From NCBI RefSeq assembly GCF_021028975.2, contig NC_059428.1, positions 992,001-1,056,000 on the forward strand: 64,000 nucleotides of DNA. Direction: 5' to 3'. Below the pieces are notes generated by a model, which was given only the letters and a program-made list of their open reading frames with translations, was not told where the DNA came from and did not search any database. Shown here piece by piece: positions 32,632 through 57,839 of this stretch; the stretch's first letter is position 1, and every line of letters starts with the position of its first letter. The DNA comes from Sphaerodactylus townsendi. Taxonomy: Eukaryota. The position numbers and the translations under genes were made by a program.

Positions 32632-33295
32632 CCTTATAAACTCGCGTATAAGCCGAATTTTTCAGCCTTTTTTAGGCTGAAAAATGCCCCCCTCGGCTTA
32701 TACGCGGGTCATCCCCCCCCTGCCCCCGCAGAGCCACAGTGCTTACCTATGAGTGGCGAAGTCTCGGCCCCCCTCGGCCCCCCACTTTCTTTCTTGCAGG
32801 CTCAAAGTTTCAGGCGTTTCAGGGAAGCTGCCAGGAAGCTTCCCCTCGAGGCAGCCTGTCTATGGTTTTCTGCATTGCCCTTTTAAGAAAACCATAGACA
32901 GGCTACCTCTAGAGGCAGCTTCCCTGTAGACTTAGAGCTTAGAAAGCCGGCAGCTTCCCTGAAACAACGCCTTAAACTTTGAGCCTGCAAGAAAGGAAGT
33001 GTGAGTTAGTGAGGGGCAGGAGGCATTCTCTGCTTCGCTTTCTCCAGCTTTCAGCCACTTTCCCTCTCCCCAGACCCGTGTGCGCCACCTTGCCCCTCCT
33101 TAAAAAGCCTCCCAAAGGCTTCTGGGGCACTCCTTTCCTACAGCTGTGGCTCCTTTGCCGGCTCAGCACCCTGCCTCCTGATGGATCTTTCCCACCCTTG
33201 GCTTATTTGCGAGCCAATAAAATTTCCCAGTTTTTTGAGGTAGAATTGGGTGCCTCGGCTTATATGTGGGTCAGCTTATACGCGAGTATATACGG
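32632..33295. mobile_element. Non-autonomous Tc1/mariner (Tc2/pogo-like) DNA transposon
   Basis: TIRs related to CCGTATATACTCGCGTATAAGC at both ends; TA duplication; internal inverted repeat about 32800-32990. Confidence 0.8.
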
Positions 33296-33599
33296 TAGCC
33301 TTTTTTATTAGGCAAGAATTTGACAAATAAAAACAAGTCTAAATTAATCCTACAAGTCTTGAAAAAAATGCATAGGTTTCCTAACATTTCCCAGAGTTCA
33401 CTAAATACATGAGCATTACGATTCTCTATGATGAAGGCGAGGTAGGTATCAGCTGTTTGGCAGCATGCCGTGTCGAAGGGGAAACCCTGCCAAGCAGGAA
33501 CATCCCCCCCTCTCTGATGGGAAGCAGGCAGCAGATTGCCCTCCGAATGCTTTTCCCAGAGAAGCTGCTGGGAACAGAAGTAGATTTTCCACACTTAAG

Positions 33600-33800
33600 C
33601 ATGTGGTTAGTGGTGCAGTGATTAAGAGCTGGGGAGTCAGTCTGGTTTGTTTCTCTGCTCCTCCACATGGAATCTGCTGGGTGACCTCTTGATCGGTCAC
33701 AGTTTCTCTGAACTCTCTCAGCTCCGCCTACCTCGCAAAGGTGCCTGTTGTGACTCCTTAAAGGTTGAGAAAAGCAGGGTATAAAAATGAGTTCTTTTTC
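33600..33800 (+). mobile_element. CORE-type SINE copy
   Basis: Similarity to the SINE at 13103. Confidence 0.6.
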
Positions 33801-33967
33801 AGCTCCTCCTTCGGCTGATGCCCCCACCACTGCCGGGAGGAAGGGCCGATGCTGAGCAGGGGGCACCACCTCTCTACTCTGGGCAATGAAGCAGTTTTGG
33901 GACCTCCAAGCTTCCCCCCCCCCTTCCCATAGAGGAGCGTTTCTCTCTTCTCCTGCTCTCTGTCCAG

Positions 33968-34002
33968 GCAGCTCTCCCCTGCCATTTGCCGGGAGCACGT
34001 AG
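33968..34002 (+). CDS. CCDC9: Candidate CCDC9 terminal coding exon
   Basis: Long polypyrimidine + CAG acceptor; phase-1 join gives GSSPLPFAGST*; AATAAA at 35321-35326 would end the 3' UTR. Confidence 0.45.
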
Positions 34003-35320
34003 CCTGCCTCGCAGTCTGGCATGGGGAGTGTGTGCGTGTGCGGGGCAGGGGAGATGGAGGTCTTGTGAGAGGTGGGGATTGTTGGCTAGGCTGACTGGCC
34101 TTTGTCGGTGTGAACTGAATCCTGTCCAAGGGGTGTTCCTCTTTGGGTGTGTGTGGGAGGGTGCTTGAGCAGAGACAAAGGGGAGAAAACGTTTGAGTGG
34201 TCAGGGAAATCCCCTCTAGCAGGAGGGCCTGAATGGGGTTCTTATCCACCAGCACCCTACCTGTGCAGATGAAAGGGGGCACTTTGCAGCTGGAACTAGC
34301 TCCAGGGCATTCTACCTGTTCTTCTGTGCCTTTATTTTGGAGGTTGTGGGGAATGGGGCTACCTCTGCTTTCCACTTGGGATACCCCCCCCAACTAACAG
34401 TGCTTCCACCTGGCAGAGCTTCCTACTCTTTAAACCCCACCTGCTTTAAACCCCACCTGTAGGAGCAGCCACCTGGTTTGGGTCAGGCCATTCCTTCTGG
34501 AGCATCATGGTCAGTGGATGCCTGGAGGGCTGGCCAAGATTAACACTGTCCTCTTGCCAGGGGCATATCTGGGGCAGGGGCGAGCAGGGGAGTTATTTGA
34601 CCTAGATGCCATCTGCCTAGGTCACTTGTGTGTGTGTGTGGGGAGGGGTGCCAGGGTCACGTGGGGCGCTCTGCTTCCATAGGAAGCCTAATATGGCCAC
34701 TACCAGTTGGGGGCTAGATTCCTGTTTTGTGATTTTTAACTCTCTTCCCCCCCCCCCTCGCCCCACCAGGAGACAGCCACGGTCTGAACCCCAGCGGTTA
34801 ATGCTGCACCCATCCTTCCAACTAGGAATACCTCCCCAGGAAGGAGGAGGCTGGCTGACCCTCTGCGTGCATCAGGACATGGCCCCTCTGCGGGCCTTCT
34901 GCAAGTCTTCCATGCTTCTGGCTACAGATGAGGGTGGCTGCTTTGTGCCCACAGGGAGGGGACTGTGGCTGGCCCCCTTTACTGGAAGGCCGGAGTCAGG
35001 TGGTCTGCATGGCTAAACTGAAGGGACACAAGTAGTCTCCAAGGTCTCTCCCCTTCTTGTGCGGTGGGACATCTGGGGATGGGGAGTGTCACTGGGTCCT
35101 TTTCAGCCTTCCAAGGTGTATTCTCCTTTCCTGCTCCTCTTAGAAGGGGCAGGTGCAAACGCAGGATTCCACATTTGTATGGGTGCAGGAAAGGGACTTG
35201 GGGCGGGGGGGGGGGGGCGAGGCTGTGACCTTCCTGGGTGTTGTCCTCCTCCCACATTTCCTTGGGCAGTGTCTGTATTGACAGCCCCTCTGTATGATGC
35301 ACAACTGAATAATTTCTTAT

Positions 35321-35326
35321 AATAAA
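35321..35326 (+). terminator. Probable CCDC9 polyadenylation signal
   Basis: AATAAA followed by GT-rich sequence. Confidence 0.55.
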
Positions 35327-35449
35327 GCCTCTAAAGAGTTTGCGTACCTCTCCCTCGTGTTCTGTGAATGGGGTGGGGAGAAGAGCATGGAACAGAAAGC
35401 TTGCTCCCTGCCTGCTTCTGGTGTGTGTGTGTGTGTGGGAGGGGAATCA

Positions 35450-35742
35450 TTAAGAACATAAGAACAAGCCAGCTGGATCAGACCAGAGTCCAGCTCTCTG
35501 CTACTCGCAGTGGCCCACCAGGTGCCTTTGGGAGCTCACGTGCAGGATGTGAAAGCAATGGCCTTCTGCGGCTGTTGCTCCCGAGCACCTGGACCAGGGG
35601 TAGGGAACCTGCGGCTCTCCAGATGTTCAGGAACTACAATTCCCATCAGCCTCTGTCAGCATGGCCAATTGGCCATGCTGGTAGGGGCTGATGGGAATTG
35701 TAGTTCCTGAACATCTGGAGAGCCGCAGGTTCCCTACCCCTG
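35450..35742. mobile_element. CR1 3' tail (minus) adjoining a palindromic hAT MITE (35595-35742)
   Basis: TAAGAACA tail repeats matching the 43116 CR1 end; MITE nearly identical to 9485-9632. Confidence 0.8.
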
Positions 35743-36537
35743 AACTAGATGCTGATCACACATTTGAGTTAGGAGAGGCTTACAACTGTTGCTTTTTTAT
35801 GATGCACCTGATGTCATCAGTAAATCAGATTTCTCTGGATTGAACTCTCAGAAGAGATTAGGTGAGATTTCTCTGGATGGGTGTATGTGTAAGAGAGAGG
35901 GGGGTTTGGAAGAATTCCTAAAAGTAATTTAAGGAATTCACAGTTAACACTATGAAATCATTTGCAAGCAACTTTCAATCTGATAGATTGTCTCTGAAGC
36001 TAAATGCTTTAAAAAACCACAATTCTTAGGAAGCTACCTTGTCCAGATTCTCTACCTAGATGCAAGAGTAAAACATCTGGCTATGCTGGCACGGACCTGG
36101 AGCACTGCTTGTGCTGCCAGTGGGGACAGAGCTTGGAAGGACTGCTCCTGCCCGCTGGGGCCTGGTCTCGGGTGAAGTGTCCTCCTTGGAACAGGAGGGC
36201 GGCTGGCTGTGAAGTCCCCCAATTCCAAAGCAGGGATGCAGTGAACCTCAGAGATGCCCCTGGGGCCAGACTCACAAAACTTGGGGGGACACAATAATCC
36301 ACCCCCTCCACACACAAGAAGGGATTGTTTCTCAGCAGGGTGATCTCACCAGCCCTGCCAAATTAAGAGGAACCAGCCATTAGAGTCTGTCATCACCAGG
36401 AGGGGGTGCCCCTTGCATTTCCAGAAAGGTTGCTGGTGGCTCAGGTAAAATTTGGGCGTCAGAGTTTGCTGCGCAGCGTATCAGTGATTTCTTAGAACTG
36501 GAAGGGTCCAATGCTCAGCAATGCATTGACTGCAGGT

Positions 36538-36620
36538 CCACTTGCGCGTTTGAGGATGTTTGTGTGGTATGACAGAGTGTGACTGCCACACCACACACAC
36601 ATCCTCAAACGCACAAGTGG
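36538..36620 (-). ncRNA. Candidate pre-miRNA-like hairpin (unrecognised)
   Basis: 38-bp stem, 7-nt loop; on the minus strand 34 Watson-Crick pairs, 3 G-U and 1 mismatch. Confidence 0.35.
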
Positions 36621-36649
36621 AACTGGCACGTGCAAAAGGGCCATGAACG

Positions 36650-38330
36650 GAGAAGTGGACAGCCTCGGGTTGCCCAACCTTCGAATTCCTCCCCCCCCCT
36701 TCCTCTTTTGAAGACTTCTCCCTCCGCAGCCTCTCCGCTGCTGAACGCAGCCAGCGCCCCTCTGTCCGCCTCTCTCTTTCCCTCCCTCCCTCCCCCCCAC
36801 CCCGCCCCAAAGGGGGCACTCCAGGTGCTCCAGAAACACGAGCCAGGCAGCAGTGACCAGGTGCCAGCAGCAGCAGCAGCGGCGGGCTCGGCGTGCGGGG
36901 CAGCGAGAGCATGGGCTTCTGCAGGCGAAAGCCTCGGACGGCCAGCCACTCGGCCACCCTCCCCCCCCTTCTCCAGGGTCAAGGATTTCTGGACCAGGAC
37001 AGACCTCTCTGGAGCGGCGGCCCGTCGGGGGCACTATTGGGGGCTAACCGGGACGGCTCTGCGGCGCCTCTCTCCACCGGGCCAGGGCAGGGATTTGAGA
37101 GTCCTTCTCCAGCCCCCCCCCCGGCAACCCCCCCCCCCCCGACCCGCGACTCTGAGCAGCGAAGCGGCGCCGGCTCCCTGCAAGGCCGCCCGTCGCAGTC
37201 GTGGCAGCAGCAGCCTCCGGGCACCGCCCGCGCACTCACCCCTGCCTGGCCCAAGACACCGGCCGCCGCCCCCTCTGTCTGCGGCAGCCCCGGTCTGGCG
37301 CTCCGTTTTTATACCGCCAGGAAGAGGAAACGCTCTCCCGGGACCTGCACGGCCGCGTTGTGGGTCAGCTGTGCCCCCGCCCCCGAGAGGCCAGAGGCGG
37401 CCCGCTGGGTGGGAGCCCTGGCCGCCGGGCCCTCGGCTTGGGCGCCGCAGAGTTGCCAGCAGCAGCAGCAGCAGCAGCAGCAGGAGGCCTCCCGGCCGTC
37501 CCGGTCCCAAACAGACGGCGAGGCCTCGACAGGACCGTCGGGGTCGCTCGCGTGGGCCGCGCCGGCAGGTTTGCTGGCGAGAAGCCCCGGGCCCCGTGTT
37601 GTGCTCTGAAGCACAGGCGGCGCTCCCGCCTCCCCTTCTGCTGGCCTGGGACCGCCGGGCAGGCGGGCGAGCCCCGTCCCTCTTTGGCCGCCAGTGGCTG
37701 ACCCAGGCCCGGGGAGCGCTTCCCTCCCGCGGCCTCCTCTCCCTCCTCGTCCGAGTTGCCAGCACGAACCTACCGCCCCACAAGCTGCTGCTGCTGCTGC
37801 GGGAGGGAAGTCAGCCGCGGACTCCGTAGCCCGACCCCCACCCCACCCCACCCCACCCCCGCCAAGCCTGCGGGAGGACCTCTCCCTCCGTCCCTCCCTC
37901 CCTCCCTCCCTCCCGTAGTTTCCCACCTTCGCAGGAGAGGCGGAGACCCCGTGAGACGCCCAGCCGGGCTTAGCCTCGCCCCCCCCCCCCCGTCCCCAGA
38001 ACAGCCGTCGGAGGAAGGACTCGCTGTCCACACCGGCCGGGGCGCCCTCGCTCGGCTCCCCCCACGTTTACAGCCCATGAAGCGACTCGGGACTACTTGC
38101 CGCAAGCAGGCTCGCTCGGGTCCCTCCCCGCCCTCCAGCTCCTGCGGCCTTTGGGCTCTCGAGGAGGGGGCTTTGCAGCCCCTGACTTTCGCCCTGGCAG
38201 GGTTGGCCAACAACAACAGTCCTGCAGCCGGGGCAAGAGCACTGTCCGCTGCGAAGAAAGGGGCTCCAGCCGGTTCCTCCTTGCCCTCCCCCCGGAGTTC
38301 CACGTGTACTTTAAAAGTTCCATCCTCCCC
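36650..38330. promoter_or_regulatory. Orphan CpG island with minus-strand TATA box
   Basis: CpG-rich; TATAAAAA at 37313-37306; GTGAGT donor at 37239; several (CAG/CTG)n runs. Confidence 0.55.
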
Positions 38331-38542
38331 TTGACAAGTTTCATCTATATCATCCCCCTCCCTCATACTCTCTCTCTCCCAGGAGCCCCCACCCTGCCAG
38401 GGGACCCACTAGGTTCCCTCTGGTCCCAGCTCTGTTGGCAAGTGAGGGACTGAACCGCCAAACACACTTTGGGGAAAAAAAAAACCCAAAAGAGAGGAGG
38501 CTGCCCCCCTCCCCAGCCAGGTCACCATGAAGCGGCATAGGG

Positions 38543-39076
38543 CAGAGGCGTAGCTAGGGCAAATGGAGACCGGTGCAAAATCGGACTTTTGCTGCCCCCC
38601 CCCCAATTCCAATTCGTTTGTTTTTTGTTTTTTTGTTTTTCAGTTTTCGGCCCGCAGGGGGCGTATTTTTTAGGCTAGCAGCATCAAAAATTCAGGGTAT
38701 CTTTAGGAGGCTCTCCTGATGATACCTCCCAGGTTTGGTGAAGTTTGGTTAAGGGGGTCCAAAGTTATGGACTCTCAAAAGGGTAGCCCCATCTACTATT
38801 AGCTCCCATTGGAAACAATGGGAGATGTGGGCACACCGTTTGGGGGTCCATAACTTTGGACCCCCAAAACCAAACTTCACCAAACCTGGCTGGTATCAGC
38901 AGGAGTGTCACCAAACAATATCCTGAAATTCTGGTGCCGCTATCCTAAAAACTGCGCCCCCTGCTCGCTGACAAAGTAAAAACACTAAAAATATCAAAAA
39001 TACATTTTTGCTACGCCCCCAGGAGCGTGCCTGGTTCTAAGCGCACCCCCCCTTCCCTGTGGTAGCTACACCACTG
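38543..39076. mobile_element. Non-autonomous hAT element with a ~310-bp internal foldback
   Basis: TIRs CAGAGGCGTAGCTA / TAGCTACACCACTG; TSD GCATAGGG/GCACAGGG; inverted repeat about 38655-38965. Confidence 0.8.
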
Positions 39077-39338
39077 GCACAGGGCTTCGCAGAGGAGTCC
39101 ACAGCATGGCTTCATGGAGGGGCAAGGGCCAGGCTGGCCGGCCCAACAGACGGCTTGGACCCCTCCCCCCCTTGCCATCAGGCACAGAAAGCAAAGGTCA
39201 TAGCAGTCAACAGACTTCCTGGGCCATCTGGGAGGTGGCAGCAGCAGCTTCATAAAGTTACCAAAACAGAGAGCAAGGTAAACAATCAAGTACCAACCAT
39301 GCAATGCCCTCTTAAGCCAAAAGAATTAAATGCTGTAA

Positions 39339-41330
39339 TCTATCTATATATATAAAAAGCAAACAGTGACTTTGTTAGTCACTCCCTAACGCCGGAACGG
39401 CTGGACAGATTGCCCCCAAATTTTTCACATGATGTTTCTCCCTGTTGCGGGCAGGTAATGGGACCTTCAAATCACCGAAAGTCCATACCTGAGCCAGGTA
39501 AAACGTCTTTTTCCTGGCGCACCAGGCCATGAAGCTGTTTGTGTTTAACTGTCACCCTTAGAATGTTCGTGCAGCCTGTCTGTCTGTGGCCTGAGAGCTT
39601 AGAACGTCCGTGCAGATGGGCAGAGATGAGCAGTGAAAACAGTAAATAGGTAATACTGGTAGGTAATACGAGTGGAAGTGAAACACATACACACTTTGCC
39701 GGGTGAGACATCAGGTGGAGTCCCCCCCTCACATGCAGGTAACTTTCACTCCCTGTGCCTCACCCACTGCTACCACACAATCACATCCAGCTCATCATCA
39801 CACACCTCACTCTACCCTCCCTCACGTCCAACCACCACTTACCCACTTCCTCACCCATATTCGCCACAGCTCTCTTTTACTACAAGTGAGCTGGAGTTTG
39901 CAATTTTCTTCTAAGAACATCCGCGGGGTGGGGGCGAACCAACACTACTGGCTCTGCTTCTTTTGCACGTGGCCCTTTACGAACCCAGGGAGCTGGCCTC
40001 GATCTGAGCGCCTCACCCCCCTGCCTCTGCTGCCTGACTGGGATAGCCTGCTTGCCCCAGTTCTGCCTCACCCAAGCCAGGACTGTGCGTGTCAACCAGC
40101 CTCATGGACAGCGGGATTCACACTCTGGACAGTTCCGTTGTGGAATGGAAAGGGTTATCTTATACTAAAAAAAAAAAAGACACCACCATATAACAATGTG
40201 AACTGAAAAGGGAAAGAGGGATTCCATTTGACTACCCCAAAAGGCTATGCTGGGGATCATTGGACCTGCATGGACATCTGCGTGGGTTGCAGACTGTGAT
40301 TAGAAGGACAATTGCCACAGCAACGCGTGGCTGGGCCCTGCTAGTATATATATAAAAAGCTAACAGTGACTTTGTTAGTCATGCCCTAATGCCGGAATGG
40401 CTGGACGGATCACCCCCAAATTTTCACATGACGTTCCTCTCTCTTGCGGGCAGGTAATCGGACCTTCAAATTGCCGAATGTCCATACCTGAGCCAGGTAA
40501 AACGTCTTTTTCCTGGCACACCAGGCGATGAAGCTGGCTGTGTTTAACTGTCAACCTCAGAATGTTCATGCAGCCTGTCTGTCTGTGGCCTGAGGGGTCG
40601 GTATGCCCTTAGCATGTTTGTGCAGATGGCCAGAGATGAGCAGTTAAAGCAGTAATATGAGTGGAAATGAAACACATACACACTTTGCCGGGTGAGATAT
40701 CAGGTGGGGTTTCCCCCCTCACACGAAGGTAACTTTCACTCTCTGTGCCTCACCCACTGCTACCACACAACACACATACTCTCATACACATCCAGCTCAT
40801 CCTCACACACCTCACTCTGCCCTCCCTCACATCCAACCACCACTTACCCACTTCCTCACCCATATTCGCCACAGCTCTCTTTTACTACAAGTGAGCTGGA
40901 GTTTGCCTTTTTCTTCTAAGAAAATCCGCAGGGTGGAGGCGAACCAACACTACTGGCTCCGCTTCTTTTGCACATGGCCCTTTAAGCTGGCCTCGATCTG
41001 AGCGCCTCACCACCCTGCCTCTTCTGCCTGACTGGGATAGCCTGCTTGCCCCAGTTCTGCCTTCCCCAAGCCACGACTGTGCGTGTCAACCAGCCTCATG
41101 GACAGCGGAATTCGAACTCTGAATAGTTCCATTGTGGAATGGAAAGGGTTACCTTATACTAAAAAAACAAGACACCACCATATAACAATGTGAATTGAAA
41201 AGGGAAAGAGGGATTTCATGTGACCACCGCAAAAGGCTATGCTGCGGATCATTGGACCTGCATGGACATCTGTGTGGGTTGCGGACTGTGATAAGAAGGA
41301 CAATTGCCACAGCAATGTGTGGCAGACCCT
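39339..41330 (+). mobile_element. Two head-to-tail non-autonomous Helitrons
   Basis: 5' TC start (A|TCTATCTATATATATAAAAAG); 3' hairpin GCCACAGCAACGCGTGGC then CTAG (40341-40344); a second ~1-kb diverged copy follows directly. Confidence 0.8.
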
Positions 41331-41379
41331 TAAATATATTCTAAAGTGCCTGTATGACACTTTAGATGTATTTTACACT

Positions 41380-41682
41380 GTGAGCGGCGGTGAATTGTAG
41401 TGGACAAAAGCAGGTGCATTCTAATCCCGGAGACGCTGGGTTCCGTTTACAAACCATGAAGCTTGAGATGTGGAGGCTTATCTGGGGAATTCAGAATAGC
41501 CTGTGCATTCCCACACACACCAGCTGGGTGACCTTGGGCTAGTCACAGCTTTTCGGAGCTCTCTCAGCCCCACCCACCTCACAGGGTGTTTGTTGTGAGG
41601 GGGAAGGGCAGGGAGATTGTAAGCCCCTTTGAGATACAGGAGAGAAAGGAGGGATATAAATCCAAACTCCTCCTCCTCCTCC
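41380..41682 (+). mobile_element. CORE-type SINE copy
   Basis: CTGGGTGACCTTGGGCTAGTCACAG core; GATATAAATCCAAACTC tail. Confidence 0.75.
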
Positions 41683-42449
41683 TATTGCTTTATATATGGC
41701 ACCAAGGTCTTAACTGGTTTTAACCCCATGTGCCGCAATAATCTCATTGTTATTCATGCCGTGATTTACATAATGTTAATCGGTGCTGATTAAACCAAAC
41801 AAACCCAAATATAAACAATTCCCTTGCCGGGATTCAGTGAACGTAAATAATCCCATGCAGCGGGAGTAAGTACAGTTCATGTGCTCAGGAACACACACAA
41901 TTGATTAGTGACAGACCAGTCCTGGATTTCTCTGTCTGCATGTGTAAATCTTCAATACGGAAGCTCTGTTTGTGCACTCACAGCATCCATATCGGGCACT
42001 AGACCAATGAGACTTCGGTCTGCTGGTCCGTCAATGTTTAGAATGCTCCGTGCGTTAGAGGCGTTTTCATTTTCACTTCTTCAGTATTTGCTTAATCATG
42101 TAAGACTATCCAACATACATGGGATTCTAGTGTAATAAAATAAATATAAAATAATATCTTCAATTTTATAACCTTTATACTTATATTATAAATTTCTATC
42201 TCTACCCTTATAAATTGCACTCAAACTCCAATCTTTCTAATAATGAAAGCTGTGTTTCACATTACTTATCATTTCAATCATTATATTTCTCATATATTTC
42301 AGTTCATTCAATATCTATTATAACTTACATGACTCTCTGTGGAGCTGTATTTTCCCAAATTGGCTCATTGTCTGTTTATTGTCAGTCCTACTGGTTTTTT
42401 GTGACCTGTTAATCAGTCGCACCTGTGATGGTAATCTGCTGGTGCATGC

Positions 42450-43115
42450 TGTGATGGATTTGCCCACCCTGAAGGGTTGGTGTGTGTATTTTATGGCCTT
42501 GTGAGACAGGCCTTGGCAGAAGCCAGAGAGAGTCAGTAAACAGCACACTCCATATAAGGAGGCCCTACCTGATTGGCTGGCAGAAAACACAGTTCGCCTG
42601 GTGCCACAGGTAGGAGCCAAAAGGGCTGAGTATATATAAGCAGGGAAGAGCCTGTGACATGGTTCCTGAATTCAGAGAGACTCTGAGACGCACAGAGAGA
42701 TCTGACTTAGCAGTGTGCTGACAGGAGTCAGAGAGCTCTATTCAAACTGAGGAGCCTTGTTAGAGTGTGGAGGCCCTGAGTTTTGGTGGAAAGTGACCCG
42801 CCAGTCAGTGGCTAGACAGCTTGTCTGTCCAGACCTAGTGTCTGTCCAACCCCTGTTCCAAATCCTGTCTGGGAAGTCCAAAGGGGCAGTGTGGCCTATC
42901 AGGGGACTAAAGGAGGGAAGGGGGCTTGGGTATGCCAGGATCCTTCTAGACTTAGACGTGGGATTGTGGGGGAACAAGAAGGGTGTGTGGATCAGTCGTT
43001 GAGGCTAGAGTCTGTGTATAAAAGCTAGAAGCTGTGTGCTTAACAACTAAGAAGCTGAAACTTGCGTATGTAAAAGCAAAAGTAACTGAAACCTCTTTAA
43101 GAGAAAGAGTGAAGT
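42450..43115 (+). mobile_element. Possible LTR truncated by CR1
   Basis: TG start, GATTGG and TATATAA promoter motifs; no 3' end visible. Confidence 0.35.
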
Positions 43116-44750
43116 GAACATAAGAACATTAGAATAAGCCAGCTGGATCAGACCAAAGTCCATCTAGTCCAGCTCTCTGCTACTCGCAGTGGCCCACCAG
43201 GTGCCTTTGGGAGCTCACATGTAGGATGTGAACGCAATGGCCTTCTGCGGCTGTTGCTCCCGATCACCGGGTCTGTTAAGGCATTTGCAATCTCAGATCA
43301 AAGAGGATCAAGATTGGTAGCCATAAATCGACTTCTCCTCCATAAATCTGTCCAAGCCCCTTTTAAAGCTATCCAGGTTAGTGGCCATCACCACCTCCTG
43401 TGGCAGCATATTCCAAACACCAATCACACGTTGCGTGAAGAAGTGTTTCCTTTTATTAGTCCTAATTCTTCCCCCCAGCATTTTCAATGAATGCCCCCTG
43501 GTTCTAGTATTGTGAGAAAGAGAGAAAAATTTCTCTCTGTCAACATTTTCTACCCCATGCATAATTTTGTAGACTTCAATCATATCCCCCCTCAGCCGCC
43601 TCCTCTCCAAACTAAAGAGTCCCAAACGCTGCAGCCTCTCCTCATAGGGAAGGTGCTCCAGTCCCTCAATCATCCTCGTTGCCCTTCTCTGCACTTTTTC
43701 TATCTCCTCAATATCCTTTTTGAGATGCGGCGACCAGAACTGGATACAGTACTCCAAGTGCGGTCGCACCACTGCTTTTTATAAGGGCATGACAATCTTT
43801 GCAGTTTTATTATCAATTCCTTTTCTAATGATCCCCAGCATAGAGTTTGCCTTTTTCACAGCTGCCATGCATTGAGTTGACATTCCCATGGGACTATCAA
43901 CTGAGACGCCCAAATCCCTTTCCTGGTCTGTGACTGTTAGCACTGACCCCTGTAGCGTGTATGTGAAGTTTGGATTTTTTGCCCCTATGTGCATCACTTT
44001 ACATTTTGCTACATTGAACTGCATTTGCCATTTCTGAGCCCACTCACCTAATTTATCAAGGTCCACTTGGAGCTCTTCGCAATCCTTTGTGGTTCTCACC
44101 ACCCTACATAATTTGGTATCATCTGCAAACTTGGCCACCACGCTACCCACCCCTACTTCCAGGTCCTTTATGAATAGGTTAAAGAGCACTGGTCCCAAAA
44201 CGGATCCTTGGGGGACACCACTCCCTACATCTCTCCATTGTGAGAACTTCCCATTTACACCCACTCTGTTTCCTGTTTCTCAACCAGTTTTTAATCCATA
44301 GGAGGACTTCTCCTCTTATTCCTTCATTGCTGAGTTTTCTCAACAGTCTCTGGTGAGGAACTTTGTCAAAAGCCTTTTGGAAATCCAAGTAGACAATGTC
44401 CACCGGTTCACCCCTGTCCACATGCCTGTTTACACCCTCAAAGAACTCTAGTAAGTTTGTAAGACAGGATTTGCCTCTGCAAAAGCCATGCTGACTCTTT
44501 CTCAGCAGGTCTTGCTTTTCTACATGTTTTATAATTTTATCTTTAATGATAGATTCTACTAATTTACCAGGAACAGATGTCAAACTGACTGGCCTGTAAT
44601 TTCCCGGGTCCCCCCTAGATCCTTTCTTAAAGATTGGTGTGACATTGGCCATCTTCCAGTCTTCAGGGATGGAGCCTGATTTCAGGGATAAGTTGCATAT
44701 TAAAGTGAGAAGATCAGCAATTTCATGCTTGAGCTCTTTAAGAACTCTTG
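43116..44750 (-). mobile_element. CR1 LINE, 5'-truncated RT region
   Basis: ANVTPIFKKG, NYRPVSLTS, YLDFQKAFD, SGVPQGS and KFADD motifs; few disruptions; CR1 tail repeats. Confidence 0.95.
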
Positions 44751-47591
44751 GGCTCTAAGCTCCCCAAGGGCAGGATCTATCCCATGAGCCCTGTTGAGGA
44801 TGCTGCTTTGCGGTCCTTTTTAGATAAGAATATTGCCCGCGGATTTATTCAGAAAGCTAGTAGTGCTTATGCTGCCCCAGTGCTATTTGTGAAAAAGAAA
44901 GATGGCTCTCTTCGGCTCTGCACCGATTATAGAGGTCTTAATGCCGTTTCCGCATCAAACAAATATCCGCTCCCCCTTATCAAGGACTTGTTGGCCAACC
45001 TGGGCTCCGGTCGGATCTTTACTAAACTGGACTTGAGAGAAGCATATTACCGCGTTCGAATGGCACCTGGCTACGAGCACCTGACAGCTTTTAACACTCG
45101 CTATGGGCAGTTTGAATACTGTGTTATGCCATTCGGCCTGAAGGGGGCGCCAGCAGTCTTTCAAAGTCTTATTAACGGCGTTCTGAATGACTTCTTGTTC
45201 AAAGGGGTGGTTGTGTATTTAGATGATGTGTTAATATATTCTCAGGATGAGCAGTCTCACATTGCTTTGGTTAGAGAGGTGTTATCCCGTCTGCTTGCCA
45301 ACTCCTTGTTTGTGAAACTTTCCAAGTGTGAATTTCATAAATCTCAGCTGGATTTTTTGGGTTACTGCATCTCAGCTGCTGGATTACAAGTGGACCCGGC
45401 CAAAGTAGCTGACGTGCTGGCTTGGAAGGCCCCCAGCTCTCGTAAACAGCTCCAGTCCTTTTTGGGTTTTGCTAATTTTTACCGTGACTTCATCCCCAAT
45501 TTTTCCTCTCTGGCCCTGCCTCTCACTGACCTTTTGCGCACCAAGGAGCGGGGGTCCGCGGCTGCCCGCCCTGGTGCCAGTTTGCCCTGGAACTCTGCTT
45601 GCCAGGCTGCTTTTGATGCGCTTAAAGCTGCTTTCACCTCTGAGCCTGTTCTGGCCCATCCTGACCCCTCCCGTCCCTTTGTGTTGCACGTTGATGCCTC
45701 TGATAAGGCTCTCGGTGCCGCCCTGCTCCAGCGGGACTCTGATGGTCGCCTTCACCCTTGTGCCTACCTTTCCCGCAAGTTTTCGGGCGCTGAACTGAAC
45801 TGGACTGTTGGTGATAAAGAGACCTGTGCTATTAAGGTTGCTCTGTCTGTTTGGAGGCATTTTTTGGAGGGAGCTGAACAGCCCTTTGAGGTCTGGACTG
45901 ACCATAAGAACCTAGCTGCTTTGTGTACCCCGGGCCGTCTGTCGGCTAAGCAGCTGCGTTGGGCGGATTTCTTTGCTCGGTTTCGGTTTACTGTTCATTT
46001 TTTCCCCGGCAAGACCAACCGTCTGGCTGATGCTCTCTCCAGGTTGCCGGAGGAGGGGGAGCCTCGGCTGCAGACTGTTCCTCCCCGTACGGTTCTCTCC
46101 CCCCGGCATCTGGGCTTAGTGGTCACCCGCTCTCACAAGCAGGCTCCTAGCCCTCCTGGGCTCACCCCACTGGATCATCTCCTCTCTGGCTTTTTGGAGG
46201 CTGGCAAGTCCCCAGTCTCGAAGGAAGAGGGGGGTGACGGGCTGACACTACTGAATGGTCTTTGGTATCAGGGATCCCTGCTGTTTGTCCCACCCTCATT
46301 GCGTGCCCAAATCCTCCACCAGGGCCATGATGTTAAGTCTGCTGGCCATTTCGGCTTTGTAAAAACCCTGCACTTGTTGAGAAGGCAGTTTTGGTGGAGG
46401 ACCATGCGTACAGACATTGAGAACTACATCAAGGGTTGCCCTGTGTGTGCCATGGCCAAGACCATCCCTGCAAAGGCCCAGGGCCTGTTACAGGACATTG
46501 CTTTACCTAGTGCTCCCTGGCAAGTGATTTCTATGGATTTCATTACAGATCTGCCCCTGAGTCATGGCAAAATGGTGATATGGACTGTTGTGGATTTATT
46601 CTCTAAACAAGCCCATTTTATCCCTTGTACTTCTATTCCCAGTGCTCAGAAACTGGCTGAACTGTTCATGTTGCATATCTACCGTTTGCACAGCCTCCCA
46701 AAGAAGTTAATTTCCGACCGCGCCCCCATGTTTGTGTCCCGCTTTTGGAGGTCCTTGGTCAAGTTTTTGGGGGTGGAGCAGGGGGTCTCCTCTGCATTTC
46801 ATCCTCAGACCGACGGCGAGACCGAGAGGTCCCAACAGACACTGGAACAATACCTCAGGTGTTATGCCAATTATCAGCAGGATAATTGGGTTGACCTGTT
46901 GCCCTATGCGGAGTACGCCTATAATAACTCAGTCCATAGTAGTACAGGCAAGACTCCATTTGAGGTGGTCCATGGCCAGTCAGCACCTCCCCTGCCTCAT
47001 TTACAGTTGTCAGATGAGGCGCCAGCGCCGGAACTCCATGATTGGGTGCAGTCTGTGGCGAAACAATGGCCTGAAATCCTTCGTGCTCTTACTAAGGCCC
47101 GGGAGGCCTACAAGCGTCAAGCCAACAAGCACAGGCGTGATTTCCCATTGGTGGTGGGAGACATGGTTTATTTGTCCACTAAAAATCTGCATAGTTTGCA
47201 TCGCCCCTCCAAGCTGAGTGCTAAATATGTGGGCCCTTTTAGGATTATCAGGGTCATCAACAAGGTTACTGCTGAACTGGACTTGCCTAAAGCATTGAGT
47301 AAAATTCATCCTGTTTTCCATTGCAGCTTACTGAAGAAAACAAGTTCCCCGGATGTCTGGCATCCAGAGATGAAAGTGCCTCTACCGATTCTGATTGACG
47401 GCTCTAAGCATTATGAACTGTCTGACATTCTTGACTCTCGCATCTTTTGTAACCGCTTGCAATACCTGGTCTCCTGGAAAGGTTGTTTACCTGGGCAGAA
47501 CCAATGGATATTTTCTGAGCATGTAAAAGCCCCTCGCCTTGTCAAACTGTTCCATCAACGCTGCCCAAGCAAGCCAGGAGGGAGGCCTTAA
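44748..47591 (+). CDS. Ty3/Gypsy chromovirus pol (RT-RNase H-integrase-chromodomain), 5'-truncated
   Basis: Uninterrupted 947 codons: YLDD, DAS RNase H, HHCC, DDE integrase, GPF motif, YLVSWKG chromodomain; first ATG at 44784. Confidence 0.92.
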   Translation: MGSKLPKGRIYPMSPVEDAALRSFLDKNIARGFIQKASSAYAAPVLFVKKKDGSLRLCTDYRGLNAVSASNKYPLPLIKDLLANLGSGRIFTKLDLREAYYRVRMAPGYEHLTAFNTRYGQFEYCVMPFGLKGAPAVFQSLINGVLNDFLFKGVVVYLDDVLIYSQDEQSHIALVREVLSRLLANSLFVKLSKCEFHKSQLDFLGYCISAAGLQVDPAKVADVLAWKAPSSRKQLQSFLGFANFYRDFIPNFSSLALPLTDLLRTKERGSAAARPGASLPWNSACQAAFDALKAAFTSEPVLAHPDPSRPFVLHVDASDKALGAALLQRDSDGRLHPCAYLSRKFSGAELNWTVGDKETCAIKVALSVWRHFLEGAEQPFEVWTDHKNLAALCTPGRLSAKQLRWADFFARFRFTVHFFPGKTNRLADALSRLPEEGEPRLQTVPPRTVLSPRHLGLVVTRSHKQAPSPPGLTPLDHLLSGFLEAGKSPVSKEEGGDGLTLLNGLWYQGSLLFVPPSLRAQILHQGHDVKSAGHFGFVKTLHLLRRQFWWRTMRTDIENYIKGCPVCAMAKTIPAKAQGLLQDIALPSAPWQVISMDFITDLPLSHGKMVIWTVVDLFSKQAHFIPCTSIPSAQKLAELFMLHIYRLHSLPKKLISDRAPMFVSRFWRSLVKFLGVEQGVSSAFHPQTDGETERSQQTLEQYLRCYANYQQDNWVDLLPYAEYAYNNSVHSSTGKTPFEVVHGQSAPPLPHLQLSDEAPAPELHDWVQSVAKQWPEILRALTKAREAYKRQANKHRRDFPLVVGDMVYLSTKNLHSLHRPSKLSAKYVGPFRIIRVINKVTAELDLPKALSKIHPVFHCSLLKKTSSPDVWHPEMKVPLPILIDGSKHYELSDILDSRIFCNRLQYLVSWKGCLPGQNQWIFSEHVKAPRLVKLFHQRCPSKPGGRP

Positions 47592-47951
47592 AGGAGGCCC
47601 TAGAGGAGGCTGTATGTCAGGAGGCCTATATCTAGGGGTGCTTGTGCTGCTTTACTGTTCACTGGAGGGTGGGTGGTAAGGGTTAACACTGTTTCTAACT
47701 GTCTTTTCTAGCTGCTGTGGAATGTCTGCAAGTCGCAGGTGTCTTCAAGGTCACGGACTGGTTCTCTCACCGTTATCTGCATGCATTCTATGTGGGGCGC
47801 TCTTTCCCAGGAGGGGGGGTAGTTGCCTGTTTGCCTATAATTGCTGTGTGAATCCTGAGTCCGTCATTCTTGGCTTTGCCACTGCAGACCCATCATTTCA
47901 ATAAACTGCTGTTCTACAACACGAGTTTGTCGTTTACTGGGGGTTCTGACA
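44751..47951 (+). mobile_element. Gypsy element A (pol + 3' LTR 47615-47951)
   Basis: Purine tract, then TGTCAG...CTGACA LTR with TATA and AATAAA. Confidence 0.9.
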
Positions 47952-48350
47952 CTCCTCCTGTGCTGATTGATGGGGAGGAGCATCGTGAAATCTCTGCTAT
48001 CCATGACTCTCGCGTCTATCGTAACCGCTTGCAATACTTGGTATCCTGGAAAGGGTGGTTACCTGGACATGATCAATGGGTCAATGTTGAAGACATCAAA
48101 GCTCCCAGGCTCATTTGAAAATTCCACTGTGGCTGTCCAAGCAAACCGGGGGGAGGGCCCTAGAGGGAGCGGAAAATGTCAGGATGCTTTGAGGGTGCTG
48201 GGGGTGCTTGGCTACTTGGGCTTATGGGGTGTGTGGAAATTGTATCTTGTGTGTCATTTCTTGCAGCTCCTACCAGCAGGTGTTGGCCAAGGTCAGCTCC
48301 AACAGACTTTTCCTTTCATCAAATTGACTGCATATTTCATAGTCTGTTCT
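47952..48350 (+). mobile_element. Gypsy element B remnant (chromodomain + LTR start at 48177; 3' end approximate)
   Basis: PPVLIDGEEHREISAIHDSR...LQYLVSWKGW with a premature stop; PPT and TGTCAG. Confidence 0.8.
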
Positions 48351-49597
48351 CATGGGGGGGGGGGTATCAAAGAATGCTAATAGCAACCCTGTACTCTGAG
48401 CGACAGCCATGCCGCAGTGGGGAAGTGGGGTCAGGTGGCTCAGAGAGCAGGACAGGGTGTCCAAGATCCTGCCCATCCGAGCCTGCAGTCTCACCATGCC
48501 AGGCACGAGGCTCTTGAGATGGTAGCAGACAGACCCTCCCTCCAGCAATCCACTCGAGAGATGGACTCCAAGCACTCATGGTGCCCCTACAGGTACTCCC
48601 ACAACTCAATGGCTGCCCACGTGGCTGGCTGGCCTGGCCTGGAAACAGGGCCGGCTTCACTGTCAGTGGGATGAACACACACAGAGTGACTGGGGGAGGG
48701 GGAACATGAGGGGCTGATCACACCACTGGGGGGGGGGCACCACATCCTTTCCACTTGGGTGCATCTCTGTCAGTGGCAGGAGGGGACTGGGCAGAGGCGA
48801 CGAAGAGTGTTGGGGAGTGCTGATGGTCCCCTGGCCCCAAGCTGCTATCAGTGATGGTCAGCAAGTGTGGAACCATGGAGACAGCCACATGCTCTGCACA
48901 GGAGGGGCAAGAGCAAGTCCTGGATGGCTGTAGGGTCCAGAGATGCCCAAGCACCCTGGTGCCCTGCATCTGCTGCTGGCCCGCCCCTCACAGCCAGGCC
49001 TTTTTCGGTTCTGGCCTCACCTGGTGGAAGTCTCTGTCTACTCTAGTGAGACCCAGGCCCTGAGAGACCTGGCCAGTCACGTAGATACGGGGGAGGGGGG
49101 GTCCCAGGCCATTGGGATCACCGGTGGGGTGTGTGTGTGGAAAATCGCCCCCACACCCTTCCCTGCTAGAGGCTGCTGCTGGGTGCCCCTGCCTGGCCCC
49201 ATCCCACCAGCCAGGCCCTGTGGCCTGGAGCAGCCTCAGCGGCCTGGGCCGTGGGGTTGGGCGATGCCCCAGCCAGGCTGCTTTTACAGCCAACTGCTCT
49301 TTGCACGAAGGTAAGTGGAGGGGGGGGGTCGGTGGGGCCGTGGCGTCATTTTGCCCCAGGCACTATTTTTGATAGCGTTGTCAGAAATAAATCCATTTCT
49401 GATCTATGTTTCTAAATAAAATGAAACTTTATTTTGTTTTTCTGTAGTTTAGACAGAAATACCTTCTGTATTAGATAGAAGATAGGATTTGTTCTGTGTT
49501 TGTATAAACTCTCCTCTCCTCAAGGCAGAAATGCTGGTGACAGCCCAGCCTTGCCCCACCTTGGTATGTCCTTTTCATTCACAAAACAGAGACCAGG

Positions 49598-52500
49598 TGT
49601 AAAGGATTCAATGGTGTTGATGAGCGGGTCAGCCGCCTGGCCTTGACTACATTCCACAACCCGGGCGATGGGCCAGCTTCTGCCGCGGAGACCTTATCTC
49701 TGCGAGGGAGATGAGACCTCCGTTCCCATGGGAATCCGGGAGGGGGGATGGGATGGACACAGAGGATTATAACCTGTGCATTTCTGAAGGGAGACCTTAT
49801 TCCTACCACGTAGTGTATGCATTGAGCTTTCTAAGATGTCTGAATAAAAGCGGTCTTTTACACCCAAAAAAGCCTTTTGGCTACTGCAGCTATGGAATTC
49901 CGCCCATTGTGGCAGGAATCCTAGTTCATCTATGCTTCCTAGTGCAGTGGACCTCTGGTGTCTCGACATGGAGAGGTTGAATATTTCCTGGCGGAAAGTC
50001 TGTTAGCCCCCAAAGAGGGCTCTGAGCACCGCTTCTGGATTTAGAGGAACCTTACGTGGGAAGCGGGTCTCGCTGGTAACTCTTTCCCGTCCTGCGTATC
50101 ACGACACGAGTCTTCCCTTACTCGGCGTTGGGACGAGGGACGAGGAGACGGTCATGTGGACGTGCATGAGGCGTTTGGGGCGCTGTCTATGGATCGAGCG
50201 CCTGTGGATTAGGATATCTGCCCATTTCGATTATTGGATTACCAAACCTCAGACAGATGCAGCCTGTCGAGGAGGAGGCGGCTCTGACCACCTTCCATCG
50301 CGGCAACACAGGAGTCCATGGAGCGATTCCTGGACTCGTATTTTGCTGATGCTCCCAAGAATCCACCGTGGCCCCCAGATCCCGGATCAGCAGAAACACC
50401 TAGGGTGCCCAGTGGAATACCGGTGGGCAGCGCGATGTCATACGTTCTGGTGAAGGGGAATCCGAAGAAAGCCTGCATTCCCACCCGGATCTATACCCCC
50501 TCCCATCAAAGAGAGAGGCTGGGATGAGGAAGTGGGCCGACTGCGGGATGCCCAAGAAGCATGGACCGATGAGCTTCCAGCTATGGGAAGAGGAACGAGA
50601 GCAGCTGCAGCAGGAGGGCGTGAAAACCTGCAAAGAGACCGGGAACAGCAGGCGCCGAAATCCAACTTCCGGGTTGGACCGTGCCAAAGGCCAGCTGCAG
50701 CGGCAATATGTGCAGAACCTATCAGTCCATGATAAAGTCCTGGAACACTCCAAACTGGACTTACAAGCGTCAACGAGCAAGCGTTCAGACCTCGTCATAC
50801 GCAAAGTGAATTAACTGCAGCTGTTCAGCGAAGCGAACTGGCCAAACTGGAGCGAGAGAAAGCAGCTTTGCATGCGCACCAGGATGCGATGACTGGCAAG
50901 GAGAGAGAGCTAGCCGCCTTGGAAAGGGAACTGAAGAAACCGGCAGAACAAGTTTTAAGAAGTTTAAGGTCCTCGCTGTCACTGGGTACAGCTAACGCCA
51001 GAGGGGCGACGCTTGTTGGGTCCTGCTACTTTCAGCTGCGATCTCAAGCCACTCTTTCCAAGGACCGGCTCCCACCAGAACACCAAAGCGGCACCGACGT
51101 TGGTACCTCCACTCTCTCCACCGATTCCGGCCCCCCCTGCGCCGCTGCTCTCAACCTGCGCTAGAACCGCGCCCTTAGCGGAGCGCCAAGGGCCCGCGTG
51201 GAGAGAGGGATATTACAGACCTCCAATACCTGCCTCGTTTGCGATAGGGGACCGCTTCCAAACTTCCCTACTTCATCCTACAACTTCGATGCCCACATGG
51301 AGGGACTATGACGATTTATACCCGTGGGTCTGAACGCTGTGCAATCACGGGACATCGGGTTCCGTCTTTGGATGGGGCGGCAGCCCGACTGGTTTTAATG
51401 ACTCTTTTGAATCTGCAAGATGAGGATACTCGCATACCGGTGCCGGCGTTCCTCAAAGCCTTTAAGGGGCTGCGGCCTTCCAAGATCCGGGTGCTGAAAT
51501 GAAGCCATCCGGGCACCTATCAAATCTTATTCAGCAAGGCTAAACCGCTCGTTTGCAGAATTTGCCCGTGGAATTTCGTGCGCGGCTGCTCGAGCTCCCT
51601 CCTGAAGTGGCCTGAGCGCATGAAATGTGAATACTTCTCGGATGCTGCTTCGACCCGGCAAACTTCTGGCGTGGAAACGGTGTTCCCTAATTCGGATCCC
51701 CCCCCGCACTATTGCTGATTGGATCGACTTGGGATCCCAGGTGGCGTCTCGTTTGGAGTACGCTCGTGCCGGGGGCCACCCTTGCGCCCAAAACCCACCG
51801 CTGCGACCCCTAAGTCAAGCTTCCAGCAACTTCTACCGAGGACTCACTCTCCGAGCTGCCGTCGCCGTCTGGGATTGTGTCTTTACTGGGCGGAGGACCG
51901 GGTCATCCCTAGCCGCTTCAACTGCCCGAAGAAACAGAAGCCAACCGCTCCGGCTCGACGCGCACTCCCATCTGCCAAGCCACCACGCCAAATCCGGGCC
52001 GCCCCCAACGGGCTCGTCTAAAGGGAGTTACAGAAGGCGCACCCGGAGGAGGGGGAAGCAGCTGTTTGCCCTCTCTTCAGCCCCCATGGATATGGGTTCG
52101 ACTCCAGATCGCGGTGAGTGAAGGCAGCGCTCCCATTACGATTCAAAGACCGCTTCTGGCCAACCCCGGCTTAAGCATACTCGTATTATAATAGCCTGCG
52201 GCCCTTGTAGATTCTGGGTGCTCCCATTTGTTTTTAATGCGGCCCCAGGTGGCGGAGGAATTAGGTCTCAGACCGGTAGTCCCCTGGCTAAGCCTATACC
52301 CGCTTCACCCAAATGGACGGCAGCCCTCTCTCTCGGATCGGAAAGGACCGGCCCAGTTCAAAACGCATGACCGGTTCTCCTCCGCTAAGTGCTGACCATT
52401 TAGGGAGAAAATTAGTTTATTATTTTGAAAGGCGCCAGTGGCCAAACACTCCATAGTTCTGGGCATGAGACATGGATTTGTTGTTGCATGAACCAAAATT

Positions 52501-55500: not shown

Positions 55501-55915
55501 CTGGGTATAATCAATGGGTTTATTCCGAAAATATTGACGCCCCCACCCTCATTTCTGCTTTCCATCACACCTTTCCGCACAAACCTGGGGGGGAGAAGTC
55601 TTTTTTAAGGGAGGCAGAGTGTAAAGGATTCAATGGTGTTGATGAGCGGGTCAGCCGCCTGGCCTTGACTGCATTCCACAACCCGGGCGATGGGCCAGCT
55701 TCTGCCGCGGAGACCTTATCTCTGCGAGGGAGATGAGACCTCCGTTCCCATGGGAATCCGGGAGGGGGGATGGGATGGACAGAGTTATAACCTGTGCCTC
55801 TGGCGGGAGACCTTATTCCTGCCACGGCGTGTACGTGAGCTTTCTAAGATGTCTGAATAAACGGTCTTTTACACCCAAAAAGCCTTTTATTTCTGCTTCT
55901 ATGGAATTCCTTACA
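49598..55915 (+). mobile_element. Full-length Gypsy chromovirus (Tf1/sushi-like), element C
   Basis: LTRs 49598-49906 and 55620-55915; TSD CCAGG; gag Zn-knuckle remnant near 51875; protease ALVDSG near 52200; RT YLDD, RNase H, integrase and chromodomain, all broken by many indels. Confidence 0.93.
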
Positions 55916-56699
55916 CCAGGCTTGTAACAAAGGAAACCCCAGAAGACGGACATCAGCTTCCCTTAATCTCATCACCCAGCAGATAAGGGGTGCCGCACCC
56001 TTAGGTTTCGTTTCCTGATCTCATCAGTAAATCCTTTGTGTTTTTCCCGCCTTGGATTTGACCGCGCCTATGTCAGCGCCTCGCTCTGAATCCACTGCGA
56101 AATTCAAGAAAGGACTGCCCTCTGGAATGTGATTGGTTCTTCTTTTGTTAATGAATGGTGGTGGGTTGTACCGAGGTCTCCCGGTTTTCCCGGCAGGAGA
56201 AAGCGTTTACATAGCCTTGTGAAGCTGCTAGGCAGCGCGGTTGCTGTGGAACGAGGGTGCTGACACTTAGGTCAGCATCGCAATAAAGAATCTTTATTTG
56301 TTTACTATACTCGCTGTGTTGGGTCCCGGTTTCTGTTCCTTCACGCTACCGAGAGCTGAAATCACATTGAAAGCAATAAAGTTACCCGGGTGGCGTGGTA
56401 ACATTTTCTCCCCCTACATCACTGGACCCGGCTCAGTTCTGCAGGGCGGGCACATTCTGTCAGGCCTACTATAGTCGAAGACTTACAAAAGCTGCTGGCC
56501 TCTCTCTCTCCCCTCTTTTTGCTGGATGCCACCAATGCACATTGTCCCAAACAGCCGTTCTGGGGTCTCCTAATTTTATTTGCCCCTAAAATGTACATCT
56601 AAGCACAACATGAGGGGCCCCATATTATACAGAGACCGACAGAACACTGGCAATGATTTCATGGATGTCATGTAGTAGCCTCTTGTGACACGTGATGAA

Positions 56700-56960
56700 A
56701 CTCTTCCTCGGGCGCAACGGCTGCCCTGGCGCTGGCCTGGCAGCCTCCCTGAGACCGCAGGAGGGCGGCTGTGCGCGGCGTCCGACCAGGGGACCTGCCC
56801 AAGGGTTCGCTCGCGCGCGCGCGGGCTGCTGCCGAGAGCGCCGCCGCCGCCACCGGGCTGCCCCCCGCCCGCATCCCCGGCCTGAGCTCCCGCTTCCAGG
56901 CGCTTCTGAATCCCGGGCGGGCGGGCGGGCTGGCATGAATGAGCCCCCCCCCCCCCCCCC

Positions 56961-56993
<33 letters not shown>

Positions 56994-57768: not shown

Positions 57769-57839
57769 CTCTGCCCCCGCCGCCTGGCAAGGAGCCAGTG
57801 GGCAGCCCGGGAGGGCCCTGAGGACTCGCCCGGCCAGAG

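What the first reader, a model, noticed from the sequence alone, without database searches (positions are those of the whole stretch)
36481..37313. Unannotated minus-strand spliced transcript candidate in the orphan CpG island, possibly a miRNA host
Seen: all on the minus strand, a TATAAAAA box (37313-37306), a short exon ending at a GTGAGT donor (37239), an acceptor ctttcgcctgcag (exon start 36918) and an ATG 6 nt later. The ATG opens 143 codons (36912-36481) starting MLSLPRTPSPPLLLLLAPG, matching no protein I recognise. Inference: a lineage-specific pri-miRNA/lncRNA or small-protein gene located where human has INAFM1. No minus-strand AATAAA was seen nearby.
Basis: partly seen in the sequence, partly recalled or inferred. 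Interest (0 to 1): 0.7.

Follow-up and report, generated by a model that had tools for sequence, protein, structure and literature searches.

The report
Candidate lizard microRNA host gene
A TATA-box promoter motif inside a GC-rich island lies 700 bases upstream of a single-copy, nearly perfect hairpin, so this is likely a young non-coding gene that would make a lizard-lineage microRNA rather than the small protein first proposed, though no RNA data were available to test it.

Summary
The TATA box is real signal (1 of 2000 island shuffles), and the donor is the best on that strand nearby. The 36918 acceptor is weak; a better one at 36354 is an alternative. The 143-codon ORF is probably not a gene: no homologue, 7.5% chance rate, and non-triplet indels in both related organisms that cover it. 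It is single-copy in the genome, present in two related organisms, folds better on the minus strand, and all 5 transition-type non-Watson-Crick pairs are G-U on that strand. It abuts a MITE-like terminal repeat and likely arose by template switching. Best reading: a Pol II non-coding transcript laid out like pri-miR-122, yielding a lineage-specific miRNA (about 0.4). Against: the stem changes as fast as its flanks, it is longer than the 35-bp optimum, UG and CNNC motifs are off-register, and no RNA run was listed. A transcribed but neutral hairpin is nearly as likely. It is at most a new member of a known kind.

The parts
36700..38250 (.). CpG island with no annotated-type gene in it (GC 0.72, CpG observed/expected 0.6-0.77)
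   Evidence: no Pfam family in six frames of 33000-43100 at E<=0.1
37324..37382 (-). Proximal promoter-like motifs: GC box (37382), E-box (37371), two ETS-type GGAA cores (37330, 37324); function inferred
   Evidence: motif patterns recalled
37306..37313 (-). TATA box TATAAAAA
   Evidence: 1 of 2000 shuffles; 37145-37460 single-copy
37240..37283 (-). Predicted short first exon (start inferred about 30-33 nt after the TATA box)
   Evidence: inference from spacing; no RNA data
37234..37239 (-). 5' splice site GTGAGT
   Evidence: best minus-strand donor in 35300-37400
36918..36931 (-). Weak candidate 3' splice site (exon start 36918)
   Evidence: 2.1 bits, rank 8 of 155; no change listed at 36916-36945 in organisms B, C, D
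36481..36912 (-). 143-codon ORF, probably not translated for function
36627..36643 (-). 17-nt match to the terminal repeat of an abundant Harbinger-like MITE family (family label recalled); no second end or body found
36533..36625 (-). Single-copy hairpin: 39-bp stem (36621-36583 with 36537-36575; 35 Watson-Crick, 3 G-U, 1 G-A), 7-nt loop, 3 more pairs below a mismatch
36548..36608 (-). Predicted 61-nt pre-miRNA if Drosha cuts 13 bp above the basal junction (5p 36608-36587, 3p 36569-36548)
   Evidence: register inferred from the rule in PMC7174388
36354..36383 (-). Alternative, stronger 3' splice site with a CTAAT branch-point match 26 nt upstream; would make the hairpin intronic
   Evidence: 4.5 bits, 30 AG-free bases
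34331..34336 (-). Nearest canonical minus-strand AATAAA, downstream of the last CCDC9-like exon read here; use would give a convergent overlap (inferred)

Best explanation
A TATA box in an orphan CpG island likely drives a short minus-strand non-coding transcript whose payload is the single-copy hairpin at 36533-36625, predicted to be cut by Drosha and Dicer into a lizard-lineage microRNA. Shown: the TATA box, donor, candidate acceptors and hairpin exist; the hairpin is single-copy, is shared with two related organisms and pairs better on the minus strand; the ORF is broken by indels in relatives. Inferred: Pol II starts near 37280; a 40-nt first exon is spliced to 36918 (hairpin in exon 2) or 36354 (hairpin in the intron); Microprocessor cuts about 13 bp above the stem base to give a pre-miRNA of about 61 nt; that cut may end transcription without a poly(A) signal, as in pri-miR-122. 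The hairpin likely arose in one template-switch event next to a MITE end, inside a unit that was already transcribed.
For: Hairpin: -74.1 kcal/mol on minus against -61.3 on plus, z=-12, 0 of 200 shuffles as stable. Single-copy by DNA search and by a 21-nt pattern with 2 mismatches, which gave the two arms plus 1 unrelated, non-hairpin hit; single-contig depth in organisms B and D at 82% likeness. The same search finds many copies for control hairpins. Of 18 long hairpins in 464 kb, 14 have local copies, 2 more are dispersed families, 1 has a single local duplicate, and only this one is single. It lies 690 nt downstream of one of only 2 TATA boxes in GC-rich context in the same 464 kb; chance of such a pairing is roughly 0.2-0.4% per promoter, post hoc. 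Across organisms A, B and D, 5 of 5 transition-type non-Watson-Crick pairs are G-U on the minus strand and none is A-C (P=0.03 one-sided). No listed change in the predicted 3p arm positions 36567-36543 in B or D (about 0.2 by chance). A 13-bp register gives a 61-nt precursor. The layout matches pri-miR-122 (PMC11347158, passages); template switching has made miRNA stems and a promoter is the limiting factor (PMC10710096, passages).
Against: No sign of slower evolution: 4 changes in 86 arm positions against 13 in 203 flank positions in organism D (P=0.79; 15 of 17 differences were located and the other 2 assumed to be in the flanks). Two of D's four changes break pairs, one at the first or second base of the predicted 5p strand, and D folds 9 kcal/mol worse. 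The stem is 39-43 bp with a 7-nt loop, against a preference for 35 bp and a loop of 10 nt or more (PMC7174388, PMC10710096, passages). No basal UG or CNNC at the canonical offsets for precursors of 57-69 nt; UGU fits only shifted registers. The G-U bias could also come from transcription-linked mutation bias, which supports the strand but not processing. This genome makes unique palindromes with no promoter nearby (L058). The 36918 acceptor is weak. No Rfam family reaches its cut-off.
Confidence: 0.4

Rival explanations
1. The promoter is real and makes a short spliced lncRNA, but the hairpin is a neutral template-switch or MITE-edge accident that is not processed to a working miRNA and is decaying.
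For: Stem changes at the flank rate and D has two pair-breaking changes; non-optimal stem and loop; a MITE-like terminal repeat abuts the hairpin (83 genome hits to the 16-mer against 9 for the control); another non-dispersed palindrome lies 200 kb away; earlier unreviewed notes report similar single-copy hairpins in this genome.
Against: 5 of 5 wobble pairs on the promoter's strand; rare co-location with a TATA promoter; no listed change in most of the 3p arm.
Confidence: 0.33
2. There is no discrete minus-strand gene: the island is an enhancer-like or relic CpG island, and TATA, splice motifs and hairpin are unrelated chance features.
For: Acceptor weak and ORF at chance level; hairpins are common in this genome (18 in 464 kb).
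Against: TATA in 1 of 2000 shuffles, followed 74 nt later by the best local donor; strand-concordant G-U bias.
Confidence: 0.15
3. The TATA box and 40-nt exon are a distal first exon of some other gene, spliced to an exon further down the minus strand (36354, 36055, or as far as the BBC3-like gene at about 20-25 kb), and the hairpin is intronic baggage.
For: Better acceptors lie downstream of the hairpin; a minus-strand BH3-type gene lies at 19.9-22.4 kb (weak BMF hit, name recalled).
Against: It would have to run antisense through the whole CCDC9-family gene; no Pfam domain in any frame of 33000-43100.
Confidence: 0.08
4. The unit encodes a 143-aa lineage-specific protein with a leucine-rich leader.
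For: ATG 6 nt into the candidate exon, kept in B, C and D; a short poly-Leu run.
Against: No homologue among 1005 candidates or 1.84 billion representatives; no Pfam match; poor start context (C at -3 and +4); poly-Leu is a CTG microsatellite that varies in length; a 17-nt insertion and a 13-nt net deletion in D, and +1 with an inferred +2 in B; 13 of 20 changes non-synonymous.
Confidence: 0.04

Closest known systems
lncRNA-hosted pri-miRNAs, e.g. human pri-miR-122 (PMC11347158, passages read)
   Same: Own Pol II promoter, one intron, hairpin downstream of the splice, no nearby canonical poly(A) signal.
   Different: miR-122 is conserved and its expression, splicing and Microprocessor termination are shown; here nothing is shown at RNA level, the hairpin has no Rfam family and is not detectably constrained.
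De novo miRNA stems made by template switching, e.g. hsa-mir-4713 (PMC10710096, passages read)
   Same: Single-copy near-perfect stem within the 30-55 bp range, short loop, lineage-restricted, close to a promoter.
   Different: The pre-switch state was not seen: both relatives that cover the site already have the hairpin. Most published cases are intronic in existing genes; this one would have a dedicated TATA promoter in an orphan island.
MITE-derived miRNAs, hsa-mir-548 from Made1 (PMC1784062, search listing and start of abstract only)
   Same: Hairpin beside a MITE-type terminal repeat in a genome rich in palindromic MITEs.
   Different: mir-548 stems are the repeat itself and are multi-copy; here the stem is single-copy and only a 17-nt end matches the family (nhmmer E=0.023, not a blind test).
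INAFM1/INAFM2 (Pfam PF15018 InaF-motif)
   Same: Position between CCDC9 and DHX34 as recalled for human INAFM1; CpG-island setting.
   Different: No InaF motif in the window; all 7 genome hits lie elsewhere and read as one INAFM2-like family (subfamily name recalled). The GRWLR word in the ORF is not followed by a membrane helix.

Membership tests
bona fide animal microRNA gene (MirGeneDB-type criteria) | Stable single stem-loop with well-paired arms | tested here: met
   38 of 39 stem positions pair on minus; z=-12
bona fide animal microRNA gene (MirGeneDB-type criteria) | Reads from both arms with 2-nt offsets | not testable with these tools
   criterion from PMC9074900 passages; no RNA holder listed
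bona fide animal microRNA gene (MirGeneDB-type criteria) | [quoted passage not shown] | not testable with these tools
   needs small-RNA reads
bona fide animal microRNA gene (MirGeneDB-type criteria) | Microprocessor geometry: stem about 35 bp, loop 10 nt or more | tested here: inconclusive
   39-43 bp stem and 7-nt loop as folded; a 13-bp register gives a 61-nt precursor with 17 nt between the strands
bona fide animal microRNA gene (MirGeneDB-type criteria) | Helper motifs basal UG, apical UGU, CNNC (common, not required) | tested here: not met
   no register of 12 tested carries two motifs; UG and CNNC fit only precursors of 55 nt or less
bona fide animal microRNA gene (MirGeneDB-type criteria) | Conservation of mature arm and structure above background | tested here: inconclusive
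   stem rate equals flank rate (P=0.79); 5 of 5 wobble bias (P=0.03); only two close relatives
known Rfam miRNA family | Score at or above the family cut-off | tested here: not met
   0 hits at gathering score in the window; best 49.8 bits against 90
dispersed palindromic MITE | Many similar copies in the genome | tested here: not met
dispersed palindromic MITE | Two terminal inverted repeats and a target-site duplication | tested here: not met
   one 17-nt end only; no second end or body
template-switch inverted repeat | Outgroup without the repeat, explained by one switch | not testable with these tools
   B and D both carry the hairpin; C does not cover it
protein-coding small ORF gene | Frame kept and synonymous excess in relatives | tested here: not met
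   non-triplet indels in B and D; 7 of 20 synonymous, P=0.22
INAFM (PF15018) | InaF motif with membrane helix | tested here: not met

The most novel reading that the evidence does not exclude
This is a microRNA gene caught soon after birth from spare parts: the CpG island left where INAFM1 and the C5a receptors sit in mammals supplies a TATA promoter and splice sites, a template switch at a MITE end supplied a perfect stem in one step, and the resulting lizard-only miRNA is released by a Drosha cut that also stops the transcript from running antisense into CCDC9.
Probability: 0.15. Interest if true: 0.55.

Novelty: new member of a known kind. Interest (0 to 1): 0.3.

Why it matters
If true it is an unlisted lizard-lineage miRNA with its own promoter, and a tidy, testable case of how a new miRNA gene is assembled from an orphan CpG island and a one-step hairpin. 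It would not change what is known about miRNA biogenesis. The firm result is practical: the 143-codon ORF should not be annotated as a protein, and the hairpin and the alternative acceptor are where RNA data should be checked.

Tried and rejected
No RNA holder listed; this is no evidence on expression. Organism C (X5) covered only 36885-36945, so it says nothing on the hairpin. Conservation of the TATA box and donor could not be read base by base: D's contig spans 36819-37356 with 27 other letters and 19 gap letters, but the table was cut. The 1-kb tandem pair at 39345-41323 is not a miRNA cluster but a dispersed repeat. A MITE profile built from 8 of 47 motif hits matched only the 17-nt end. 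Short hairpin words were not found in paper main texts, in 10 supplements of an Anolis miRNA paper that do hold miRNA sequences, or in 7 supplements of a Pogona paper whose sequence content I did not check; these are exact-word searches and MirGeneDB and miRBase themselves were not searched. No paper held three of CCDC9, INAFM1, C5AR1, DHX34. Two papers on miRNA criteria and reptile miRNAs were not held. Earlier notes: nothing near, in relatives, by gene words or by sequence. No structure prediction was run on the ORF.

Full report
Setting. The window holds a SUMO-activating enzyme subunit 1 gene at about 6.3 kb, a minus-strand BH3-type gene at about 20-22 kb (weak BMF hit; BBC3 by recall), a CCDC9-family gene at 25.9-32 kb (DUF4594) and a DEAH helicase from 57.8 kb (DHX34 by recall). 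The host is likely a gecko; that label comes from earlier unreviewed notes and squamate-type repeats and was not checked. The finding lies in a CpG island at about 36700-38250. No Pfam family was found in six frames of 33000-43100 or 55750-57800. All 7 InaF-motif hits of the genome lie on other contigs and read as one INAFM2-like family.

Observation. The TATA box is unusual: 1 of 2000 dinucleotide shuffles of the island contains one, and only 2 occur in a GC-rich context in 464 kb (window plus 400 kb of flanks). The donor at 37239 is the best on the minus strand in 35300-37400. The acceptor at 36918 scores 2.1 bits, rank 8 of 155; a site at 36354 scores 4.5 with a branch-point match. These scores use recalled, approximate frequencies. 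The promoter and first exon are single-copy, as is 36600-37105 apart from one 39-nt simple match.

The ORF. An ATG ORF of 143 codons or more appears in 75 of 1000 block shuffles. It has no Pfam match and no homologue in two protein libraries. Genomic contigs of related organisms break the frame. D has a 17-nt insertion 11 codons before the stop in both samples laid. One D sample also has 16 nt replaced by 3 at 36736-36751, read by eye from the loose end. B has +1 at 36690 and, from the length balance, +2 in the skipped GGGA tract, which shifts about 30 codons and then restores the frame. Of 20 substitutions scored in the window's frame, 13 are non-synonymous and 7 synonymous, not different from the 25% expected by chance (P=0.22). 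I treat the ORF as non-functional.

The hairpin. Inside the ORF, 36533-36625 is an inverted repeat: a 39-bp stem with one G-A mismatch and three G-U pairs, and a 7-nt loop. It folds at -74.1 kcal/mol on the minus strand and -61.3 on the plus strand. It is single-copy by DNA search and by pattern search, and shows single-contig depth in B and D. The tool warns that a blank does not prove rarity, but the same search returned many copies for three control hairpins. Of 18 long hairpins in 464 kb, 14 have local copies, 2 are dispersed families, 1 has one local duplicate and is part of a longer palindrome, and this one is single. No Rfam family reaches its cut-off.

Evolution of the hairpin. B has 2 stem changes, both leaving G-U pairs on the minus strand. 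D has 4: one leaves G-U, one turns G-U into A-U, and two break pairs. Counting the three wobbles in the window, 5 of 5 transition-type non-Watson-Crick pairs are G-U on the minus strand (P=0.03, one-sided, strand fixed beforehand by the TATA box). This could reflect selection on RNA pairing or mutation bias from transcription; both point to minus-strand transcription. The stem is not more conserved than its flanks (4 of 86 against 13 of 203, P=0.79; 15 of D's 17 differences were located). With relatives only about 1% and 6% apart, the test has little power.

Origin. A 17-nt stretch just before the hairpin matches the end of an abundant palindromic MITE family: 83 genome hits against 9 for a reversed control, though the control is biased low by an extra CpG; most inspected hits continue into the family body. 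Here neither the body nor a second end is found. A near-perfect single-copy stem fits a template-switch origin, which has produced miRNA stems in primates where a promoter was the limiting factor (PMC10710096, passages). I could not see the pre-switch state.

Mechanism. Inferred: Pol II starts about 30 nt after the TATA box, splices a 40-nt exon to 36918 or 36354, and Microprocessor cuts the stem. With the 13-nt rule (PMC7174388, passages) the precursor would be 36608-36548, 61 nt. The missing poly(A) signal fits Microprocessor-dependent termination as in pri-miR-122 (PMC11347158, passages), but an AATAAA at 34336 and variant signals exist. The stem is longer and the loop shorter than optimal, and the UG and CNNC motifs are off-register. 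The read-based criteria that define a miRNA (PMC9074900, passages) could not be tested, because no RNA holder was listed and the runs laid were genomic.

Verdict. A likely non-coding TATA-driven unit with a candidate lineage-specific miRNA (0.4), a transcribed but neutral hairpin (0.33), no gene (0.15), a distal first exon (0.08), a small protein (0.04). It works like a lncRNA-hosted pri-miRNA if expressed; membership is not established. Short hairpin words were not found in the paper searches run, which do not cover MirGeneDB or miRBase. PMC8728216 (passages) shows that a gecko is in MirGeneDB, so that comparison is the quickest next check.

Noticed in passing
window 39345-41323: Two head-to-tail 1-kb copies, 87% alike, of a dispersed repeat with thousands of candidate copies in the genome; each starts with a TATATA run.
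   Followed up: partly
window 44742-55910: Gypsy-like LTR retrotransposon material: a 949-codon open pol-type frame at 44742-47591, a second decayed copy at about 52.9-55.7 kb, and a 300-nt direct repeat at 49597-49901 and 55619-55910. Observed only.
   Followed up: no
window 35800-57800: No INAFM1 or C5a-receptor-like sequence was seen between the CCDC9-family gene and the DEAH helicase in the parts scanned (33000-43100 and 55750-57800); in mammals these genes lie here by recall.
   Followed up: partly
L058:560-880 (G000:C4 about 1226.6 kb, identical copy at 1258.9 kb): A palindrome of at least 300 nt with nested internal repeats, present only twice, 32 kb apart.
   Followed up: partly
L003-L006, L112-L114: Seven InaF-motif loci, all of one INAFM2-like type, several with substitutions, a premature stop or a frameshift; likely retrocopies.
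   Followed up: partly
window 35584-35753, 9508-9609, 15438-15539, 32834-32923, 38628-38990: Palindromic repeat elements; the one at 35.6 kb gives a sub-threshold match to Rfam mir-5408.
   Followed up: partly
window 34447-34458: A 12-nt cluster of differences between the assembly and runs X1, X2 and X4, in two different forms, inside a short direct repeat; possibly a small inversion or template-switch variant.
   Followed up: no
L034, minus strand near 1340: The only other TATA box in GC-rich context in 464 kb, followed by long G runs and a donor 171 nt on; gene not identified.
   Followed up: no
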